Positions 2,798 to 29,181 of a stretch of DNA of 43,728 nt are shown here, one piece after another (within the stretch, counting starts at the first letter, position 1; the number at the start of each line of letters is the position of its first letter). The position numbers and the translations under genes are program-made. The notes beneath the pieces are model-generated. The model was not told the origin of the DNA. It did not search any database and worked only from the letters and a program-made list of their open reading frames with translations. This stretch comes from a virus (taxonomy: Duplodnaviria > Heunggongvirae > Uroviricota > Caudoviricetes), in the IMG/VR virus record IMGVR_UViG_3300015181_000003, positions 1-43,728 of that record; one strand, 5' to 3'.

Positions 2798-2826
2798 AAA
2801 GAGAGGGCACGACCCCTCTCTTTTTC
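2798..2826. terminator. rho-independent terminator (bidirectional)
   Basis: Stem GAGAGGG / CCCTCTC with loop CACGAC followed by TTTTT; lies just downstream of the major tail protein gene end. Confidence 0.6.
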
Positions 2827-7407: not shown

Positions 7408-7435
7408 AATGAAAAGAGGGACCGAAGTCCCTCTC
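7408..7435 (-). terminator. rho-independent terminator after major capsid gene
   Basis: Stem GAGGGAC / GTCCCTC with loop CGAA followed by a U-rich tract on the minus strand. Confidence 0.6.
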
Positions 7436-8502: not shown

Positions 8503-9204
8503 TTATTTCCTCAGGGCTTTAAGTTGCCGTTCAAATTCGGCAGGGTTCGATTTATACAGGACTAAACGCTCTGCTTCACTCATGTCTTTAAACGCTGGTG
8601 CGGCCCCGCCGCCTTTGCTACCGGAAGCCCCGCCGCCGGAAGCTGCATTTGCTTTAATCAAATGCGAAAACGCTTTGTGTTCACGCAGATATTTACGGAA
8701 CTGTTCCGGGTCAGTCGTGATTACGTTTCCGTCTGCGCCAACAAACTTAGTAACCACATCATCACCTTCGAACTCAGTCTTAACGAACGGCGCAAGAATG
8801 TCTACTGCTTCCGGGGTGATAAAGTCGCCCGCGAAAGAGCCTAACACCGCTTTACGTTCGCTGCCGAGGATACGCTCTGCCATTTTGGAGATGCGACCAT
8901 CTTTCTCGGCTAACACCGGGTCATACTGGCTACGAATCGTTTTTTCGAACTCGTCCATCTTACCAGCGGCTTTTAATGCCTCCTGGTGCGCGCGCTGCCG
9001 TTCTTCTTCTGCCTCTTTTGCTTTACGGGCGGCTTCTTTCTTCTCCGCCAGCAGTGCTTCCTGATTAGCCTTAAGCCCGGCAACTTCTTTCTCAATCAGC
9101 GCCTGAACTTCTTCAGCGGTGAACATTTTCAGCGCGTCACCGCCACCAGATTTATCTTCTGCTCCAGCTTCTTCCTGGAACGGATAACGTAAAAAACGAT
9201 TCAT
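8503..9204 (-). CDS. scaffolding protein
   Basis: About 233 aa from ATG 9204 (track start 9258 is TTG); highly charged Ala/Glu/Lys-rich coiled-coil; immediately upstream of the capsid gene. Confidence 0.55.
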   Translation of the reverse strand: MNRFLRYPFQEEAGAEDKSGGGDALKMFTAEEVQALIEKEVAGLKANQEALLAEKKEAARKAKEAEEERQRAHQEALKAAGKMDEFEKTIRSQYDPVLAEKDGRISKMAERILGSERKAVLGSFAGDFITPEAVDILAPFVKTEFEGDDVVTKFVGADGNVITTDPEQFRKYLREHKAFSHLIKANAASGGGASGSKGGGAAPAFKDMSEAERLVLYKSNPAEFERQLKALRK

Positions 9205-9286
9205 AGTCAGTATGTCCCCTGGACGTTGGAATCCGGGCCACCCGGATTTACATGTCAAGAATAAATTATTCCAACATGCAAGGCAA

Positions 9287-9550
9287 CTATTCCAGAATAT
9301 TCCTCACGTAATCCTGCAACATGAACACTTTCAGTCTCAGTTGCCGTACACATTCGGCGTTCTGAACGTCGATAGCCAAATCCTCGTCGGCGTCGCTACT
9401 TGGCAGCGCCAGTTTGCACGGCGGCTGCATCATCGTCGTATCCGGGGATGGAATTGGCGTTGGCGACGGCGCGGGACTTGAACTGCACGCGCTCAGGGTC
9501 AAAAGTGCACACGCTGCGACCAGGCGTTTTAATGTACTTAACGACTTCAC
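9287..9550 (-). CDS. Rz1: o-spanin (Rz1-like lipoprotein)
   Basis: 87 aa with signal peptide and lipobox LTLSAC, Pro-rich mature part; ORF starts inside the Rz frame and extends past it. Confidence 0.55.
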   Translation of the reverse strand: MKSLSTLKRLVAACALLTLSACSSSPAPSPTPIPSPDTTMMQPPCKLALPSSDADEDLAIDVQNAECVRQLRLKVFMLQDYVRNILE

Positions 9551-9782
9551 GGGTAATCACCTCTGATTTCGTCTTGCCTTCGTTGTCAGCAGCGGCGGCC
9601 TTCGATTCATCCTGCTGCTGCCGTTGTGTTTTCTTCGCTAACTCAGCCTGTGCTTTCTGCTGTTGCTGCGAAACGAGATTCGCCCGGCCTTCGTTCCAGC
9701 CGCTGCGGTACTGATAGATGCCGTGTGCGTAAGCCAGGATGATGAAACATGCTCCCGCTACGACAGTTGCTTTAAGATTCAT
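9396..9782 (-). CDS. Rz: i-spanin (Rz-like)
   Basis: 128 aa with N-terminal TM helix and Gln/Lys/Ala-rich periplasmic coiled-coil; AAGGAG SD; overlapped by the Rz1-like frame. Confidence 0.6.
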   Translation of the reverse strand: MNLKATVVAGACFIILAYAHGIYQYRSGWNEGRANLVSQQQQKAQAELAKKTQRQQQDESKAAAADNEGKTKSEVITREVVKYIKTPGRSVCTFDPERVQFKSRAVANANSIPGYDDDAAAVQTGAAK

Positions 9783-10100
9783 GTTTCTCCTTTCTCGATA
9801 AGTAAAGCCCCGCCTTAAAGCGGGGTGCTAGTCCTTATCATTTAAACATAGAAACGGCGTAATCTCAGTAAACCAGTTACTTTTTACACAAGCAATAGAC
9901 TATGGCCCTTCCGAACGCGTCAGCGTAACTACACTCAGGACTTACGTCCCGCTCCGTTACCTGCCCGCGCCGCGGTCGCTTGTTCATACTTCACAAGCTC
10001 AGGTGGAGCTTAGCATATTTTTAGTGAAAAGTCAACTATTCGAATAGTTTATTCCAACATTTACAATTCGGTGGAATAACTGGAATAATCACAGGCACTA

Positions 10101-10122
10101 AAAAGCCCCTTTCGGGGCTTCA
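10101..10122 (-). terminator. rho-independent terminator
   Basis: Stem AGCCCC / GGGGCT with loop TTTC, followed by a T5 run on the minus strand; directly after the gene ending at 10125. Confidence 0.6.
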
Positions 10123-10124
10123 GT

Positions 10125-10586
10125 TTATTCTGGTTTAGTGACCTTCGCCGCTTTACTGACGGCATCTACACCATTGGCATCGGTAACTTTAACGAAGTAT
10201 TCACCAGCCGCGTTAACCGTCAGAGACAAAGCCTCTTCCGGGGCGTTTACGACTTCCTTACCGTCTTTGTACCAGGTCAGTGTATATGGTGCTTTGCCCG
10301 CCTTAACTTCGACAGTGATAGTTGCGCTGTTGTCTGTCAGTTCAGTGTCCTGAGGTTGTACAGAGAAATACACATCTCCAGCATCCGCCAGATACGGAAT
10401 TTCATAAAGCATGCCCGCCGCCGGCAGCGCAATACCCGTCTTGTCCGCAAACGGCATATCGTCTACTGGTGTACCTAGTACACTTTCGTCCTCAATAAAT
10501 ACCACGTTCTCGCCAGAGCCGGACACGCGGGCGTACTGGACTACACGACGCGACGGCACATCAGTTACTTTGAAAAAGCCCATCAT
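10125..10586 (-). CDS. Ig-like domain protein (153 aa)
   Basis: Contains TLTWYKDGKEV Ig-like signature; start overlaps the stop of the head morphogenesis gene. Confidence 0.45.
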   Translation of the reverse strand: MMGFFKVTDVPSRRVVQYARVSGSGENVVFIEDESVLGTPVDDMPFADKTGIALPAAGMLYEIPYLADAGDVYFSVQPQDTELTDNSATITVEVKAGKAPYTLTWYKDGKEVVNAPEEALSLTVNAAGEYFVKVTDANGVDAVSKAAKVTKPE

Positions 10587-11670: not shown

Positions 11671-11690
11671 AAAGCCCCTTTCGGGGCTAT
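11671..11690 (-). terminator. hairpin / possible terminator between portal and morphogenesis genes
   Basis: Stem AGCCCC / GGGGCT with loop TTTC. Confidence 0.45.
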
Positions 11691-17293: not shown

Positions 17294-17313
17294 CTAGTCA
17301 TTACAGAAAATAG

Positions 17314-17347
17314 ATAAAAAAAATCCCGGCTGGGTCAGGGCCGGGAT
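17314..17347 (-). terminator. strong rho-independent terminator
   Basis: Stem TCCCGGC / GCCGGGA with 9-nt loop followed by U8 on the minus strand. Confidence 0.7.
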
Positions 17348-17379
17348 AAAACTGGAGAGCAGAGGGATGGAACAGGAGG

Positions 17380-17481
17380 TGTTAGGCGAGTAGTCAACTA
17401 GGGTCTGCCGGGCGAGCCGGAAAGTCACCGTGTGAGTCGCGTACTCACTCCCGCTAATTTAACGGTTCACTACTCGCCTAA
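17380..17481. repeat. perfect 14-bp inverted repeat enclosing two internal hairpins (candidate structured RNA or protein site)
   Basis: GTTAGGCGAGTAGT at about 17380..17393 is the exact reverse complement of ACTACTCGCCTAAC at about 17468..17481; inside are a CCGG / CCGG stem and a GTGAGT / ACTCAC stem. Confidence 0.5.
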
Positions 17482-17518
17482 CTAAGTATCGTCGGATTAG
17501 TCTCAGGTGTCAATTGGT

Positions 17519-17552
17519 AAAATAAAACCCGGATTAGCGGTCCGGGTTTTGA
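17519..17552. terminator. rho-independent terminator (bidirectional) downstream of endolysin
   Basis: Stem AACCCGGA / TCCGGGTT with loop TTAGCGG; T/A-rich runs on both sides. Confidence 0.6.
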
Positions 17553-17678
17553 TCATAAGCCCCTGAACCCTACGCAGTCTCCACCGCTTGGGCTGCTGCT
17601 TCTGGTTTACCAGGGCTTAGTATGCAAATACGAAAAACTTGGCCTAACGATAATACTAAACGCCTTCGTATTCGTCCA

Positions 17679-18164
17679 TCATTTAACTGCCCTCCCAATA
17701 GCCTCCGCCTCCTGCCACGGTTTGCCGTCGAATAGCGCCAGACGACCGGCGGTACGACGACGCAGGCCAAGTAACGGTTTGCCGTTCTGGTTGATGAACA
17801 GCGCCAGCTTAGCCCGCAGTGTCACAATATCCCCAGAACGCAGCGCCTTGCCCGTGCCAGTAGTAGCCGCAATCACACCAGCACCCGCGTTATACACCAG
17901 GTCACACACTGCATCAAACTGTTCCTGTGTAAGTGAATGGTGCGCTGCTGCGTCAACCGCAGCTACTGCCTTAGCCATATCACGATTCAGTAGCAGGAGT
18001 CCCTGCCCTGGCGTGATGGTCTTGCCTGGTGTTACGTCCGGCCCGTAGTGCCCGTACCCAATAGTCAGGTACTTCTCGTTCGACGTAGCGCGATATGCAG
18101 TGCCGCGGAATCCCTCGAATGCAGCGGTAAAATGCAGCCCATTATCTGAAATGTTTCGAGACAC
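17679..18164 (-). CDS. endolysin (phage lysozyme, GH24-like)
   Basis: 161 aa with FEGFRGTAYRATSNEKYLTIGYGH lysozyme signature. Confidence 0.85.
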   Translation of the reverse strand: MSRNISDNGLHFTAAFEGFRGTAYRATSNEKYLTIGYGHYGPDVTPGKTITPGQGLLLLNRDMAKAVAAVDAAAHHSLTQEQFDAVCDLVYNAGAGVIAATTGTGKALRSGDIVTLRAKLALFINQNGKPLLGLRRRTAGRLALFDGKPWQEAEAIGRAVK

Positions 18165-18414
18165 GCTTATGTCCTCCGTATGCCAGCCACGCCTGACGAA
18201 TCTGGCGCAGCGCGACTAATGTGATTAATGTCTCAGGCAACGTCGGGGACATGCTGCCCTGTAACAGGTGGATGCATCCGGCAGCGCAGACGATAGCTGT
18301 CAGGATATAAAGAACCCGACCAAATAATCCGTCGTCAACGCTGGGGTGATACACATTAAACAGCGATGTGCCTCCGATTGCCAGCATACCGCCGAACCAG
18401 AATAGCTCATTCAT
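18142..18414 (-). CDS. holin/antiholin-like membrane protein (90 aa)
   Basis: Internal ATG with GAGGAGG SD; two predicted TM helices; between the holin-like gene and endolysin. Track ORF extends to 18567 in a frame overlapping the holin. Confidence 0.4.
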   Translation of the reverse strand: MNELFWFGGMLAIGGTSLFNVYHPSVDDGLFGRVLYILTAIVCAAGCIHLLQGSMSPTLPETLITLVALRQIRQAWLAYGGHKRVSKHFR

Positions 18415-18715
18415 CTGGGCCTCCTCGACGTGCAATGTATTCTCCGGCGACGATGCCAGAAAGACGGGAATAGATAGGCATCCAGAGAATGGCGATGATG
18501 AAGCCCAGGCCCGCGATTTCACGGTCGCCCGTGATACCAAACCATTGAGCGGCAAGAGGTGCGCCAAATACGGCGCAGGTGAAGCCGGTTACAATAAAGA
18601 ATAAGCCGTCGATGGGACCAGAAATAACGGACTTATGTTGTCGTAGTCCGATTACCCCTCCGGCTAGTGCGGCAGCGAGAAGCCAGCCTGTCACTGTTTC
18701 AGTAAATTTATCCAA
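18407..18715 (-). CDS. holin-like membrane protein (102 aa)
   Basis: Multiple hydrophobic helices and a charged C-terminus; immediately upstream of the endolysin block. Confidence 0.45.
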   Translation of the reverse strand: MDKFTETVTGWLLAAALAGGVIGLRQHKSVISGPIDGLFFIVTGFTCAVFGAPLAAQWFGITGDREIAGLGFIIAILWMPIYSRLSGIVAGEYIARRGGPDE

Positions 18716-22125: not shown

Positions 22126-22197
22126 GAGAATAGTTACGTTGCCGTTGTGATTCTTCAGGCAGGGTTGTGCCTTTATTCTTATTACTTGGTAACTAAA

Positions 22198-22218
22198 GGG
22201 CAGGCCTTAAGCCTGCCC
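22198..22218. promoter_or_regulatory. perfect GC-rich hairpin/palindrome in the early control region
   Basis: GGGCAGGC-CTTAA-GCCTGCCC, 8-bp perfect stem. Confidence 0.35.
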
Positions 22219-22505
22219 AATAATCGTTACATTTTTACGGTTGCGAATCTACGGCATTTTAAGAAAATCAGATACTTAAGATATATGCTGCCGATGAGAA
22301 TAGAGCTTGCCCAGGGCAACCGGAGATACTTAGGAAGGAAAGTTACGATAATTCTCATGTTCAGTAAACTTTCGCTTAACACTTTGCTTGCGCTGCGCGC
22401 AGCTGCGTTTTAAGCGGTTTTACAAGGTGAACAGGAATCAAAGTAACTAAGATATAGAAGCACCTTAAACGAAGATTTTCATAATGTCAATAGGTGCAAT
22501 TATGT

Positions 22506-22534
22506 TTGATTTCCCATTATTCGCAATGTATACT
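22506..22534 (+). promoter_or_regulatory. candidate rightward early promoter (TTGATT-17-TATACT)
   Basis: -35-like TTGATT, 17-nt spacer, -10-like TATACT about 33 nt upstream of ATG 22567 with GAGGG SD. Confidence 0.4.
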
Positions 22535-22566
22535 TGGTTTCGTTAACTGATAATGAGGGCTTTGGA

Positions 22567-22737
22567 ATGACACAGAATGAAGTGGCAGAGCGTATCGGGG
22601 TTACCCGTCGCACGCTGAATAACTGGTTAAAGAGCGGGAAGTTCCCGGATTGTTGTATTCGCATTATGGGTCGTCGTCAGCCAGGTACATTTGACCCGGA
22701 GAAAGTGGAAGCGTGGATTAAGGAGAACGTAAAATGA
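22567..22737 (+). CDS. HTH DNA-binding protein (AlpA/excisionase-like small regulator)
   Basis: 56 aa from ATG 22567 (track start 22534 is TTG and overlaps the promoter); motif VAERIGVTRRTLNNWLKSGKFP. Confidence 0.55.
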   Translation: MTQNEVAERIGVTRRTLNNWLKSGKFPDCCIRIMGRRQPGTFDPEKVEAWIKENVK

Positions 22738-25624: not shown

Positions 25625-26140
25625 ATGTTAGACCAATTCTTAAAATTACTGGAACGTTTCGTAGTCGCACATGAACTGATTGCTGCGAATAGTTCGAAAC
25701 AAGTTGTCGTCGCCGAAGTAGATGGGTTAACCGCAGAGACTAAAGCAGACGTAGTTCGTTCCGTTGTAAAAGCTGAAGAAACAAAAGAAATCCCAGTCGA
25801 AGGTGAAGACCCAGTCGAAGGTGAAGACCTTGTTGACACTAAACCGGCAGAAGAAGAGAAGCCTAAACGCAAGCCGCGTAAAGCTAAAGCCGAGGAACCG
25901 ACGCCAGAACCGGAAGAAGAGAAAGAAGAAGTCGATTATCAGTCTCTTCGTGACCAGATTCAGGCTATCGACGATGCGATTAACGAAGGTCCGAGCGATG
26001 CCGCATGCGATGACTCCGATGAACTGCTGGAAGAGTTCACTGGTAAGAAGATGAAGATTGCCGCGATTAAAGACGAAGACCTGGCTGAATACCTGGAACG
26101 CCTGACGGCAATCAAGAACAAGTATTTCGAAGAAGAATAA
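25625..26140 (+). CDS. acidic low-complexity protein (171 aa)
   Basis: GGAGGAG SD; Glu/Asp-rich with PVEGED x2 encoded by an 18-bp tandem repeat at 25793..25828. Confidence 0.5.
   Translation: MLDQFLKLLERFVVAHELIAANSSKQVVVAEVDGLTAETKADVVRSVVKAEETKEIPVEGEDPVEGEDLVDTKPAEEEKPKRKPRKAKAEEPTPEPEEEKEEVDYQSLRDQIQAIDDAINEGPSDAACDDSDELLEEFTGKKMKIAAIKDEDLAEYLERLTAIKNKYFEEE
25793..25828 (+). repeat. 18-bp perfect tandem repeat x2 (CCAGTCGAAGGTGAAGAC)
   Basis: Two exact adjacent copies inside the coding region of 25625..26140. Confidence 0.8.
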
Positions 26141-28671: not shown

Positions 28672-28696
28672 AAGGCCCTTCATTGGGCCTTTTTAC
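28672..28696 (+). terminator. rho-independent terminator
   Basis: Stem AAGGCCC / GGGCCTT with loop TTCATTG followed by T5. Confidence 0.6.
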
Positions 28697-28706
28697 CGGA
28701 GTCAGA

Positions 28707-29181
28707 ATGGAACATATAAAAGATTTTCTAAGCTACGACCGAGAGACAGGGGTATTCACGTGGATACAGCCTACTTACCGTCGAGGGCGACCGGGAGACA
28801 TCGCGGGGTGCATCAATAGTAGTGGATACTGGCGAATTCCGTACATGGGTCGATATTACATGGCGCACAGGCTAGCGTGGTTTTTCGAGTATGGTGAATG
28901 GCCCGAAGGCCCTCTTGACCATATAAACCGTGACAGGTTAGACAATAGGATTTCTAACCTAAGGAAAGCAACAACCGCTGATAATGTGCGAAACGCTAAA
29001 AATAAGGGAGCTAGAACAGGAGTTAAGGGGGGTAGTTAAAAACGGCAACCGATTTTACGGGCGTGTGCATTTTAACTACAAAAGTTATAACGCCGGTAGC
29101 TACGGAACTCTTGAAGAAGCAGAAAGCGCTGTAAAGAAATTAAGAGAAAAACTGCACAAGGAATTTTATTGCCATGACTAG
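28707..29181 (+). pseudogene. HNH-AP2 homing endonuclease, split by a frameshift in a G6 run
   Basis: Frame 1 (28707..29039) carries the HNH motif YMAHRLAWFFEYGEWPEGPLDHINRDRLDNRISNLR. Frame 2 (28984..29181) carries an AP2-like domain GVVKNGNRFYGRVHFNYKSYNAGSYGTLEEAESA. Frames switch at GGGGGG 29027..29032; one extra G would fuse them. Confidence 0.55.

What the first reader, a model, noticed from the sequence alone, without database searches (positions are those of the whole stretch)
9259..10124. Spanin genes displaced from the lysis cassette and flanked by repeated 12-mers
Holin and endolysin are at 17.7..18.7 kb, but the overlapped Rz/Rz1-like pair is about 8 kb away at 9287..9782, between head morphogenesis and scaffold genes. 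The cassette follows a 340-bp noncoding region and has a hairpin about 20 nt before its SD. The 12-mer TTATTCCAACAT occurs on both flanks (about 9267..9278 and 10049..10060), each near TATTCCAG-type repeats and a TTGAC(A/T) hexamer, and a perfect palindrome CTATTCGAATAG lies at about 10036..10047. The repeats may be late-promoter or activator sites, or the footprint of cassette insertion.
Basis: seen in the sequence. Interest (0 to 1): 0.55.

Follow-up and report, generated by a model that had tools for sequence, protein, structure and literature searches.

The report
Structured leader RNA upstream of spanins
The spanin (outer-membrane lysis) genes of this E. coli phage sit among the head genes, as in all its relatives, and the "empty" DNA in front of them holds a conserved promoter, a folded RNA not found in Rfam or the papers searched, repeated regulator-type sites and a slot where related phages carry accessory genes.

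Summary
The spanin displacement itself is ordinary: the window is a Kagunavirus genome, and the order Hoc-like | Rz/Rz1 | scaffold holds in every Guernseyvirinae lineage checked. It is already annotated in RefSeq.

An exact 12-mer repeated within 1 kb is expected by chance. Here, however, it is half of a 19-bp site built on GAATA-N3-TATTC. That palindrome occurs only twice in the genome, once in each flanking intergenic region, and its core recurs in all four lineages sampled. An insertion footprint is not supported.

The new content is the 342-bp "noncoding" region. It contains:
- a bidirectional terminator;
- an empty accessory-gene slot with its own outward promoter (filled in 31 of 40 relatives);
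- the palindrome;
- an extended -10 sigma-70 promoter;
- a ~110-nt RNA of two stem-loops supported by compensatory changes, absent from Rfam;
- a two-tier hairpin before the spanin ribosome site.

Among Kagunaviruses the RNA is 98-99% identical (85-92% in two variant copies), against 83-98% for flanking genes. Phage Jersey has a diverged homologue. Some Kagunaviruses carry a second promoter+RNA copy in the early control region.

Best reading: a cis-acting leader of the spanin-scaffold-capsid transcript. A free-standing small RNA is a close rival. Function is inferred only.

The parts
10103..10120 (.). Bidirectional terminator hairpin after the Hoc-like gene (AAGCCCC-GAAA-GGGGCTT). It also closes the accessory-gene slot.
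   Evidence: The equivalent element is annotated as a two-way terminator in fBC-Eco01.
10089..10102 (+). Empty accessory-gene ('moron') slot. Relatives carry 211-875 bp inserts here, with their full-length ORFs on the + strand.
   Evidence: 9 of 40 loci are empty (44-47 nt between anchors, as here) and 31 are filled. By reading the translated ORFs, the inserts include lipoprotein-like, small hydrophobic, HNH-type and DNA methyltransferase-like products. Searches give the annotated examples.
10060..10089 (+). Outward promoter for the slot: TTTACA-18 nt-(TGG)AATAAT.
   Evidence: 10 of 12 consensus positions plus TG. Both hexamers are conserved in Jersey; the -10 block is also conserved in phiEap-2. 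A phage promoter is predicted at the same place in fBC-Eco01.
10036..10060 (.). Operator-like block between the two divergent -35 hexamers. It comprises CTATTCGAATAG (10036..10047), GAATAGTTTATTC (10042..10054) and the 12-mer (10049..10060).
   Evidence: The GGAATA-N3-TATTC core lies 6 nt from the -35 in both Kagunavirus and Jersey. In phiEap-2 it is a perfect GGAATAAATTATTCC.
10007..10035 (-). Leader promoter: -35 TTGACT (10035..10030), 17-nt spacer, extended -10 TGc-TAAGCT (10015..10007).
   Evidence: The 17-nt spacing, the TG and the T/A/T positions of the -10 are kept in the Kagunavirus, Jersey and phiEap-2 types. The fBC-Eco01 authors predicted it as 'Host promoter1'.
9890..10006 (-). Structured RNA core. 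P1 hairpin: 9998..9993 pairs with 9983..9978. One unpaired G follows. The long irregular stem runs 9975..9911 and is capped by GGAC-GUAA-GUCC (9949..9938). The tail UUCGGAAGGGCC (9915..9904) and UCUAUUGC (9899..9892) is conserved. The predicted transcription start is near 10000.
   Evidence: Model R1 scores 142.6 bits here. RNAalifold on an unfitted MAFFT alignment finds 3 compensatory pairs. On a model-fitted alignment 98.7% of cells pair, against 23-46% when partners are slid. Phage Jersey has a homologue at 48.8 bits.
9832..9889 (-). A/U-rich middle part of the leader.
   Evidence: It is 96-100% identical among Kagunaviruses and partly alignable with Jersey by eye.
9797..9839 (-). Two-tier hairpin before the spanin SD. 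Lower stem: GAUAAG/CUUAUC (9839..9834 with 9802..9797). Upper stem: CCCCGC/GCGGGG (9825..9808). It looks terminator-like in this genome only.
   Evidence: terminator-like; the same two-tier fold forms in four lineages with different sequences, and the SD is left single-stranded.
9396..9782 (-). i-spanin (Rz-like), 128 aa. SD AAGGAG at 9792..9787.
9287..9550 (-). o-spanin (Rz1-like lipoprotein), 87 aa, lipobox LSAC. It overlaps and extends past the i-spanin gene. Its last codons carry the tandem GGAATATTCTGGAATAG (9303..9287).
9258..9286 (-). Scaffold promoter candidate, TTGCCT (9286..9281)-17 nt-TATTCT (9263..9258). The second palindrome GGAATAATTTATTC (9272..9259) and the 12-mer (9277..9266) lie over its spacer and -10.
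   Evidence: By eye, the TTGC(C/A)(T/A)-17-TATTCT arrangement is present in the window, Jersey, phiEap-2 and TS6.
9214..9248 (-). 5' hairpin AAUCCGGG-UGG-CCCGGAUU (9248..9230), followed by the mini-hairpin/SD GUCCAGGGGAC, ahead of the scaffold ATG at 9204.
   Evidence: the hairpin forms in four lineages with compensatory flanking changes.

Best explanation
The interval is the spanin cassette of a Kagunavirus together with its control region. I read the 342-bp upstream region as a compound regulatory hub, not as spacer DNA.

Shown:
- The Rz/Rz1 pair is genuine, and its place between the Hoc-like and scaffold genes is a subfamily-wide trait.
- After the terminator of the Hoc-like gene come two back-to-back promoters. 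One points outward into a slot that relatives fill with accessory genes. The other (TTGACT-17-TGcTAAGCT) points toward the spanins.
- The first ~110 nt downstream of the inward promoter fold into two stem-loops. This fold is maintained by compensatory changes between paralogues and between genera.
- A two-tier hairpin precedes the spanin ribosome-binding site in all four lineages examined.
One copy sits between the divergent promoters. The other overlaps the candidate promoter of the scaffold gene.

Inferred:
- Host sigma-70 RNA polymerase starts near position 10000.
- The nascent structured RNA then acts in cis, either on the polymerase (processive read-through of terminators, as HK022 put RNA does) or on its own transcript (stability, processing or translation). 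This sets how much transcription and translation continues through the hairpin into spanins, scaffold and major capsid protein. That stretch is bounded by the strong terminator after the capsid gene (7435..7414).
- An unidentified dimeric DNA-binding protein uses the GGAATA palindromes and tandem repeats to time the three promoters.
For: Identity and synteny:
- The window is about 94% identical to K1ind1, ST20 and PDP21P8.
- The same gene order is seen in seven relatives.
- A spanin homologue (37% identity) lies immediately after a lysozyme-like ORF in Klebsiella phage Kp4862-1, that is, in a normal lysis-cassette position.

Constraint on the noncoding DNA:
- The 342 bp is 95-99% identical in 179 phage records.
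- Per segment among Kagunaviruses, the RNA core is 98-99% identical, except for two variant copies at 85% and 92%. The middle of the leader is 96-100% and the spanin-scaffold intergenic region 92-100%. Flanking coding segments are 83-98%.
- The Jerseyvirus LSPA1 has the Kagunavirus-type leader at 96-98%, yet its spanin segments are only 72-84% identical.

RNA structure:
- RNAalifold on a MAFFT alignment gives compensatory pairs CG/UA/AU and UA/GC/AU.
- On 31 distinct sequences, 98.7% of cells pair against 23-46% when partners are slid. Seven pairs change on both sides. The covariation score is 0.275 against at most 0.073.
- Jersey keeps the fold with other sequences: ACGCU/AGCGU and UGCGGUCGCG/CGCGACCGCA.
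- The minimum-free-energy z-score of the leader is -2.5.

Not protein-coding:
- One-nucleotide indels between variants fall inside the only ORF there, 36 aa at 9877..9987.

Promoter:
- The -35, the 17-nt spacing, the TG and the -10 are conserved in three lineages.
- Other authors predicted the same promoter independently.

Context that favours read-through control:
- Intrinsic-terminator-like sites on the gene strand lie after the portal gene (11688..11673), before the spanins (9825..9808), after the capsid gene (7435..7414) and at 2823..2798. The Hoc-gene hairpin was called on the opposite strand only.

Operator sites:
Against: - No transcript data exist. The transcription start, the RNA ends and any effect on downstream genes are all predictions.
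- The second copy of promoter+RNA found in some Kagunaviruses replaces a self-contained promoter-RNA-terminator cassette. It is followed by a further promoter-like site, identified by eye. That looks like a portable stand-alone RNA gene, which favours a trans-acting role.
- The pre-SD hairpin has a usable U-tract only in Kagunavirus. In the other lineages the would-be U-tract is base-paired in the lower stem. Regulated intrinsic termination is therefore unlikely to be the conserved mechanism.
- Model R1 finds nothing in the HK022 genome, so the element is not homologous to put.
- The PHROG scans found no Q/N-type antiterminator or sigma-like protein. They covered 10 of about 25 small leftward early ORFs and 10 of 12 rightward genes.
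- The high identity of the noncoding DNA is partly due to mosaic exchange and not only to selection.
Confidence: 0.42

Rival explanations
1. The promoter+RNA unit is a free-standing small RNA gene. It would be either terminated or processed at the pre-SD hairpin, or be a 5'-UTR-derived sRNA. It would act in trans on phage or host targets or sequester a protein, and its position before the spanins would simply be inherited synteny.
For: - The module is portable. A paralogue at 80-90% identity, with the same promoter, occupies the early control region in several Kagunaviruses (L005, L012, L018, L023, L035, L038, L043, L078).
- There it replaces another promoter-RNA-terminator cassette. That cassette is the one present in this window at 22489..22198, with z = -4.7 and a strong terminator.
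- The genome carries a third such unit at 17513..17308.
- In this genome the leader ends in a terminator-like hairpin.
- An A/U-rich stretch followed by a hairpin resembles the 3' module of Hfq-type sRNAs (my own knowledge).
Against: - In Jersey, phiEap-2 and TS6 I found no convincing terminator between the RNA and the spanin start. Transcripts from this promoter should therefore run into the spanin genes.
- No target or seed region was identified.
- The apical loops vary freely.
Confidence: 0.33
2. The repeats are DNA-level recombination or insertion sites. They would be either footprints of insertion of the spanin cassette or sites used to exchange cassettes such as the accessory genes.
For: - The region is a hotspot of gene exchange: 31 of 40 relatives carry different inserts.
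- In phiEap-2 the accessory gene is flanked by inverted copies of GGAATAACTGGAATAA.
- In the window the leader+spanin block is flanked by inverted tandem GGAATA pairs and by direct 19-bp repeats.
- Mosaic boundaries fall nearby in LSPA1 and L031.
Against: - The 12-mer identity is not conserved. In Jersey the two flanking sites share only GGAATA...TATTC.
- The sites keep fixed positions relative to promoter hexamers across genera, which is operator behaviour.
- No recombinase or transposase lies nearby.
- An exact 12-mer pair within 1 kb is expected by chance.
Confidence: 0.08
3. The region is a replication origin. The GGAATA repeats would be iterons, and the promoter, G-rich structured transcript and A/T-rich stretch would prime or activate replication, as in T4 or ColE1-type transcription-dependent origins.
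For: - It contains direct and inverted short repeats, a promoter, a G-rich RNA-sense strand and an adjacent A/T-rich stretch.
- Some genomes have two copies of the promoter+RNA unit.
Against: - The second copy lacks the GGAATA repeats.
- The repeats also occur on the scaffold promoter, where no structured RNA follows.
- The replication genes lie on the other arm of the genome, 23-34.5 kb.
- Covariation preserves RNA helices and not merely base composition.
Confidence: 0.05
4. The conserved stretch encodes a small protein. Candidates are the 36-aa ORF at 9877..9987, annotated in Bas76 and fBC-Eco01, and 'gp08' in Jersey.
For: Some genome records annotate hypothetical proteins there.
Against: - One-nucleotide indels between close variants lie inside the ORF.
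- The Jersey 'gp08' ORF starts inside the -35 hexamer and is in no conserved frame with the Kagunavirus ORF.
- Substitutions are compensatory in RNA helices.
- No SD precedes the ATG, which lies in the loop of P1.
Confidence: 0.02

Closest known systems
HK022 put RNAs (putL/putR), cis-acting processive antiterminators
   Same: In both cases a structured RNA is transcribed directly downstream of a sigma-70 promoter. Both have two stem-loops separated by about one unpaired nucleotide. Both exist as two paralogous copies in one genome, at the heads of long operons that contain terminators (put features from PMC9378689; this element).
   Different: There is no detectable homology, since model R1 finds nothing in the HK022 genome. 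The proportions differ: about 21 plus 65 nt here, against two stems within a ~70-nt RNA for put. The host phage is not lambdoid. The second copy is optional and replaces a terminated cassette. No functional data exist.
Lambda late leader: PR' - 6S RNA - tR' - S R Rz Rz1 - head/tail genes, with Q antitermination (my own knowledge)
   Same: Both have a promoter followed by a short leader of about 190 nt that ends in a terminator-like hairpin. Lysis genes (here Rz/Rz1 only) come immediately after, followed by morphogenesis genes with internal terminators.
   Different: No Q-like gene was recognised. A -10-like repeat at the transcription start occurs only in the Kagunavirus and Jersey types. In this phage the holin and endolysin genes are elsewhere, and the leader body is a conserved structured RNA, which I do not know to be the case for the lambda leader.
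'Jersey' family of overlapped two-component spanins (Kongari et al. 2018, PMC6139136); T4 pseT.3/pseT.2 as spanins located apart from holin and endolysin
   Same: The window's pair belongs to the same family as K1G, K1H, K1ind1-3, SETP3 and Jersey. As in T4, the spanin genes are not next to the holin and endolysin genes.
   Different: Nothing differs for the proteins. The spanin part of the finding is already known.
Phage 'morons': accessory genes with their own promoter and terminator between structural genes (HK97/lambda literature, my own knowledge)
   Same: The slot at 10089..10102 has a dedicated conserved promoter and a terminator. It holds different single genes in different relatives, all transcribed against the structural genes.
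   Different: In this window the slot is empty. Its promoter shares an operator-like block with the spanin leader promoter.

Membership tests
Two-component spanin (Rz/Rz1), overlapped architecture | The i-spanin has an N-terminal transmembrane segment and a periplasmic domain | tested here: met
   The hydrophobic N-terminus MNLKATVVAGACFIILAYA is visible in the translation. The whole protein matches phrog_2536 at 3e-56.
Two-component spanin (Rz/Rz1), overlapped architecture | The o-spanin is an outer-membrane lipoprotein with a lipobox Cys, and its gene starts inside the i-spanin gene in another frame | tested here: met
   The signal ends in LTLSAC. The coordinates 9287..9550 and 9396..9782 overlap out of frame. 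It matches phrog_5672 and phrog_1267.
Two-component spanin (Rz/Rz1), overlapped architecture | Required for outer-membrane disruption at lysis | not testable with these tools
   This needs a spanin knockout and lysis curves with and without divalent cations.
HK022 put-type antiterminator RNA | Sequence or structure homology to putL/putR | tested here: not met
   Model R1 gave no hit at E <= 10 in the complete HK022 genome. Rfam gave no relevant hit.
HK022 put-type antiterminator RNA | Two stem-loops transcribed between a promoter and the first terminator | tested here: inconclusive
   The architecture and position fit. The stem sizes differ from put, and the terminator is canonical only in Kagunavirus.
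HK022 put-type antiterminator RNA | Acts in cis on RNA polymerase (beta' zinc-binding domain) to suppress termination | not testable with these tools
   This needs in vitro transcription or reporter assays, including rpoC zinc-binding-domain mutants.
Lambda-type Q-dependent late leader | A Q-family antiterminator gene in the genome | tested here: not met
   No such PHROG match was found among the 20 early-arm proteins scanned; most of the 10 small leftward ones scanned are of unknown function, and 15 or so small early ORFs were not scanned.
Lambda-type Q-dependent late leader | A -10-like pause element in the initially transcribed region | tested here: inconclusive
   TGAGCT lies 5 nt after the -10 TAAGCT in Kagunavirus, and TACGCT is repeated in Jersey. 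Nothing equivalent is seen in phiEap-2.
Any curated RNA family (Rfam 15) | A covariance-model match | tested here: not met
   There were no hits at gathering scores in the whole window. At E <= 10 in 9200..10200 there were only 3 hits, all far below their gathering scores and none on the RNA core.
Trans-acting Hfq-type sRNA | Own promoter, Rho-independent terminator with a U-tail, and a conserved seed complementary to targets | tested here: inconclusive
   The promoter criterion is met. The terminator is acceptable only in Kagunavirus. Seeds and targets were not searched.
Insertion footprint / target-site duplication | Direct repeats at cassette ends that mark the insertion and have no other constraint | tested here: not met
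   The repeats are palindromic and sit at fixed distances from promoter hexamers. Only their GGAATA...TATTC core is conserved in Jersey.

The most novel reading that the evidence does not exclude
The promoter-linked two-hairpin RNA is a new class of phage antiterminator RNA, unrelated to put. On this reading it is made as the first ~110 nt of the transcript and stays with E. coli or Salmonella RNA polymerase. It then lets the polymerase read through the intrinsic terminators of the late, and in some phages the early, arm of Guernseyvirinae. That would make it the first put-like system in non-lambdoid phages that I know of, present in several hundred sequenced phages.
Probability: 0.17. Interest if true: 0.78.

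Novelty: new member of a known kind. Interest (0 to 1): 0.55.

Why it matters
- Guernseyvirinae (Kagunavirus, Jerseyvirus, Cornellvirus) are among the most frequently isolated E. coli K1 and Salmonella phages. To my knowledge they are also common biocontrol and therapy candidates. I know of no description of how they time gene expression without their own RNA polymerase.
- A conserved promoter-coupled structured RNA at the head of the spanin-scaffold-capsid block, together with a shared operator motif on three promoters, gives concrete and mutable targets for working that out.
- If the RNA modifies RNA polymerase, it would widen a mechanism that, as far as I know, has been shown only for HK022-type put RNAs.
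- Practically, the naturally variable slot at 10089..10102 is an obvious landing pad for engineered payloads. It has a ready-made promoter and terminator, and nature already fills it with many different genes.
- For annotation, several records call hypothetical proteins on top of this RNA (Bas76_0007, fBCEco01_09, Jersey gp08). These calls are probably spurious.

Tried and rejected
- Rfam at gathering scores on the whole window, and at E <= 10 on 9200..10200, gave nothing relevant. The tRNA/tmRNA scan found none.
- A blastn search of complete E. coli genomes with the 342 bp found no match, so this is not a host or prophage element there.
- Model R1 was run against HK022 and found no put homology.
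- Two IMG/VR pattern scans gave many chance matches. Only Kagunavirus- and Jersey-type loci survived the model. A 17.6-bit hit (L057) lies inside a capsid gene and was discarded. A weak hit in Kp4862-1 is in coding sequence.
- Regulated intrinsic termination at the pre-SD hairpin is weakened by the lack of a free U-tract outside Kagunavirus. I also found no conserved alternative (antiterminator) pairing by eye.
- A second promoter just before the hairpin ('Host promoter2' of fBC-Eco01) is not conserved, because Jersey has a 3-4 nt deletion in its spacer.
- A sigma-dependent pause element was considered, but the evidence is suggestive in only two lineages.
- TGGAATAAT as a recurring extended -10 was rejected as the general reading. 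The TG is not conserved (Jersey and phiEap-2 have AGGAATA), whereas GGAATA is.
- Resemblances of the repeats to DnaA, ArgR, RcsAB, TyrR and sigma-54 sites were considered from memory. Each mismatched at critical positions or spacing, and none was tested.
- The PHROG scans of 20 early-arm proteins found no antiterminator, sigma or late activator.
- Literature searches found no description of this RNA or of Guernseyvirinae transcription signals beyond in silico promoter lists.
Full report
**What the window is.** The 2.5 kb around the finding is 93-95% identical to Kagunavirus genomes such as PDP21P8, XY2, ST20 and K1ind1-2, and weaker matches extend to several hundred Salmonella Jersey-like phages. 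All genes from about 22.07 kb down to 2.1 kb, continuing from 43.2 to 34.7 kb, are on the minus strand. In order they are small early genes, two holins and an endolysin, more small genes, terminase, portal, head morphogenesis, Hoc-like, spanins, scaffold, major capsid and tail genes. Replication genes occupy the plus strand from 22.5 to 34.5 kb.

**Checking the observation.**
- The i-spanin is 9396..9782 and the o-spanin is 9287..9550, with lipobox LSAC. Both match PHROG 'Rz-like spanin' families.
- The holins and endolysin lie at 17679..18715.
- The noncoding stretch is 9783..10124.
- The 12-mer is exact at 9266..9277 and 10049..10060 and occurs nowhere else.
- The palindrome is at 10036..10047.

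Statistically the 12-mer is not special. Shuffled copies of the genome contain 0-8 exact 12-mer pairs within 1 kb. The motif family is special. TATTCCA occurs 11 times against 4.6 expected, and five of those lie in the two short intergenic regions. GGAATA/TATTCC clusters only there, and GAATA-N3-TATTC occurs only at 9259 and 10042. The real repeat is therefore a 19-bp site, GAATA(A/G)(A/T)TTATTCCAACAT.

**The spanin displacement is a family trait.** The order head morphogenesis, Hoc-like, Rz, Rz1, scaffold, capsid is annotated in K1ind1, Golestan and Bas76 and in Jersey and LSPA1. It is recognisable in phiEap-2 and TS6, which are unclassified Guernseyvirinae. Kongari et al. 2018 list a 'Jersey' family of overlapped spanins that includes K1G, K1H and K1ind1-3, and they note that T4 spanins are likewise apart from t and e. 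A distant homologue (37% identity) in Klebsiella phage Kp4862-1 lies immediately after a 164-aa ORF whose translation looks like a lysozyme. The relocation is therefore old and specific to this subfamily. This part of the finding is already known.

**The 342 bp is more conserved than the genes around it.** It is 95-99% identical in 179 phage records. Segment by segment among Kagunaviruses:
- RNA core (see below): 98-99%, apart from two variant copies at 85% and 92%;
- middle of the leader: 96-100%;
- spanin-scaffold intergenic region: 92-100%;
- flanking coding segments: 83-98%.

LSPA1 is classified as a Jerseyvirus. It has the Kagunavirus-type leader at 96-98% while its spanin segments are 72-84% identical. 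Other Salmonella phages combine a ~96% identical leader with an i-spanin only 76-79% identical in protein. Both selective constraint and mosaic exchange are at work.

**Anatomy of the region, read in the gene direction (minus strand).**
1. A terminator hairpin at 10120..10103 closes the Hoc-like gene.
2. A 44-nt gap follows. In 31 of 40 related loci it holds a 211-875 bp insert whose full-length ORFs are on the opposite strand. One is annotated 'endonuclease VII' (LSPA1_07). By reading the translations, the others include a lipoprotein-like product, small hydrophobic proteins and DNA methyltransferase-like proteins. I did not run these inserts against protein families.
3. A plus-strand promoter, TTTACA-18-(TGG)AATAAT at 10060..10089, points into that slot. 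Both hexamers are conserved in Jersey, and the -10 block also in phiEap-2.
4. The palindromic block at 10036..10060 sits exactly between the two -35 hexamers.
5. The minus-strand promoter is TTGACT-17-TGcTAAGCT at 10035..10007. The 17-nt spacing, the TG and the T, A and T of the -10 are kept in the Kagunavirus, Jersey (TTGACT or TAGACT-17-TGtTACGCT) and phiEap-2 (TGGACT-17-TGaTAACCT) types. The fBC-Eco01 authors predicted the same promoter.
6. The transcribed region begins with the structured core (10006..9890) and continues with an A/U-rich stretch.
7. A two-tier hairpin at 9839..9797 ends 4 nt before the SD.

**The RNA.** A blast search of the fetched loci showed that the segment 10035..9893 (promoter plus ~110 nt) has a second copy, 80-90% identical, in several Kagunavirus genomes. 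This second copy has different flanks. In this window the corresponding position is 22155..22567.

The variants differ by compensatory changes. RNAalifold on a plain MAFFT alignment predicts the following:
- a hairpin P1 (GCUUGU/ACAAGC);
- one unpaired G;
- a long irregular stem closed by CCG/CGG;
- pairs that switch CG/UA/AU and UA/GC/AU;
- an apical hairpin that switches GGAC/GUCC, GUGC/GCAC and GGGC/GCCC.

A covariance model built from this alignment (R1) finds a much more diverged homologue in phage Jersey at 48.8 bits, E about 1e-12. It lies on top of the annotated 'hypothetical protein gp08'. There P1 is ACGCU/AGCGU and the long stem is a perfect UGCGGUCGCG/CGCGACCGCA. Eight further Jersey-type loci and two more paralogue variants came from IMG/VR.

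On the model-fitted alignment of 31 distinct sequences:
- 98.7% of cells form pairs, against 23-46% when partners are slid by 1-3 columns;
- seven pairs change on both sides;
- the covariation score is 0.275, against at most 0.073.

That alignment leans toward the model, but the unfitted alignment and the Jersey sequence read by eye agree with it. phiEap-2 gives a weak hit at 14 bits, E 0.008. TS6 has a leader that shares only AUAGUCUAUU and the 3' hairpin module.

The stretch is not protein-coding. One-nucleotide indels between close variants fall inside the only ORF, 36 aa at 9877..9987. Nothing in Rfam 15 matches, and the full-text searches found no description of it.

**The hairpin before the SD and the second intergenic region.** In all four lineages the 60-80 nt before the spanin start fold into a lower stem plus a G+C-rich upper stem, built from different sequences, and the SD stays free. 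Only in Kagunavirus does this resemble an intrinsic terminator.

The spanin-scaffold spacer contains three conserved elements:
- a TTGC(C/A)(T/A)-17-TATTCT promoter-like arrangement, conserved by eye;
- the second palindrome, GGAATAATTTATTC, lying over its spacer and -10;
- a conserved hairpin CCGGG-NGG-CCCGG with compensatory flanks, just ahead of the scaffold SD.

**Interpretation.** The repeats behave as operators for a dimeric DNA-binding protein that would act on three promoters: slot, leader and scaffold. I could not identify that protein.

For the RNA I favour a cis-acting leader.
- It is universal at this position.
- In the non-Kagunavirus lineages transcription from its promoter should run into the spanins.
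- The block it heads is bounded by terminators: after the Hoc-like gene upstream, and after the capsid gene at 7435..7414.

A put-like action on RNA polymerase is the most interesting sub-case. It is supported only by architecture and position (put features). The element is not homologous to put.

The strongest counter-argument concerns the second copy. It replaces a self-contained promoter-RNA-terminator cassette, the one at 22489..22198 in this window, and is followed by another promoter-like site identified by eye. The genome also holds a third such unit at 17513..17308. This portability fits a stand-alone small RNA almost as well.

Insertion-footprint, origin and coding readings are much weaker, for the reasons given under the rival explanations.

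**Verdict.**
- The headline (displaced spanins) is already known.
- The 12-mer is half of a real, conserved operator-like site and not an insertion scar.
- The region contains a well-supported structured RNA family with a conserved promoter that I could not find in Rfam or the literature searched. It also contains an accessory-gene slot.
- Function remains inferred.

Noticed in passing
window 17308..17553 (-): The space where spanins would sit in a canonical lysis cassette, directly after the endolysin gene, is occupied by other elements. In order they are a terminator-like hairpin (read by eye), a strong sigma-70 promoter (TTGACA-17-GATACT), a ~170-nt RNA and a U8 terminator (read by eye). 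The RNA has a 14-bp closing stem and a CU-rich, anti-SD-like single strand (CACCUCCUGUUCCAUCCCUCUGCUCUCC). Its MFE z-score is -4.5. It gives sub-threshold Rfam hits to CU-rich sRNAs. The RNA body is present in full only in this genome and in phage EC3-1. This is a candidate trans-acting sRNA.
   Followed up: partly
window 22198..22489 (-): The early divergent control region holds the promoter TTGACA-17-TAAGGT, a ~270-nt RNA with a very stable fold (z = -4.7) and a strong terminator (22218..22198). It is found in 397 phage records, including most Jerseyviruses at 60-80% identity, and is usually unannotated. In some Kagunaviruses this cassette is swapped for the paralogue of the spanin-leader promoter+RNA. 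The divergence available should allow a covariation test.
   Followed up: partly
window 10089..10102; relatives L002, L003, L116, L020, L109 and others: This is a hotspot for accessory genes transcribed against the structural genes. At least a dozen different inserts are seen, including a lipoprotein-like ORF (Golestan gp05), the annotated 'endonuclease VII' (LSPA1_07) and DNA methyltransferase-like ORFs. The slot is empty in this window. The functions other than LSPA1_07 were read from the translations and not checked against protein families.
   Followed up: yes
window 9214..9248 (-): A hairpin (CCGGG-NGG-CCCGG) and a mini-hairpin overlapping the scaffold SD (GUCCAGGGGAC) are conserved in four lineages. 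This could be a translational operator. From my own knowledge, P22 scaffolding protein is known to autoregulate post-transcriptionally.
   Followed up: partly
L116 (Salmonella phage LSPA1) and L031: The genomes are mosaic. LSPA1, a Jerseyvirus, carries a Kagunavirus-type Hoc-like gene and leader (85-98% identity) next to Jersey-type spanin and scaffold genes (72-84%). L031 has the Kagunavirus leader but a divergent o-spanin region (66-67%).
   Followed up: partly
Public records: Bas76_0007, fBCEco01_09, Jersey gp08 (N271_gp08); o-spanin calls in Golestan and Bas76: Hypothetical proteins are annotated on top of the structured RNA and are probably spurious. Some records also call a truncated 47-aa o-spanin that lacks the lipoprotein signal, in place of the 87-aa form.
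   Followed up: partly
window 25792..25829: A short tandem direct repeat with an 18-bp period accounts for a run of repeated 12-mers.
   Followed up: no
window 28683..29039 (+): An HNH endonuclease ORF (phrog_99, 1.7e-43) lies between the Gp2.5-like single-strand-binding protein gene and the DNA polymerase gene. It is probably a homing endonuclease.
   Followed up: no
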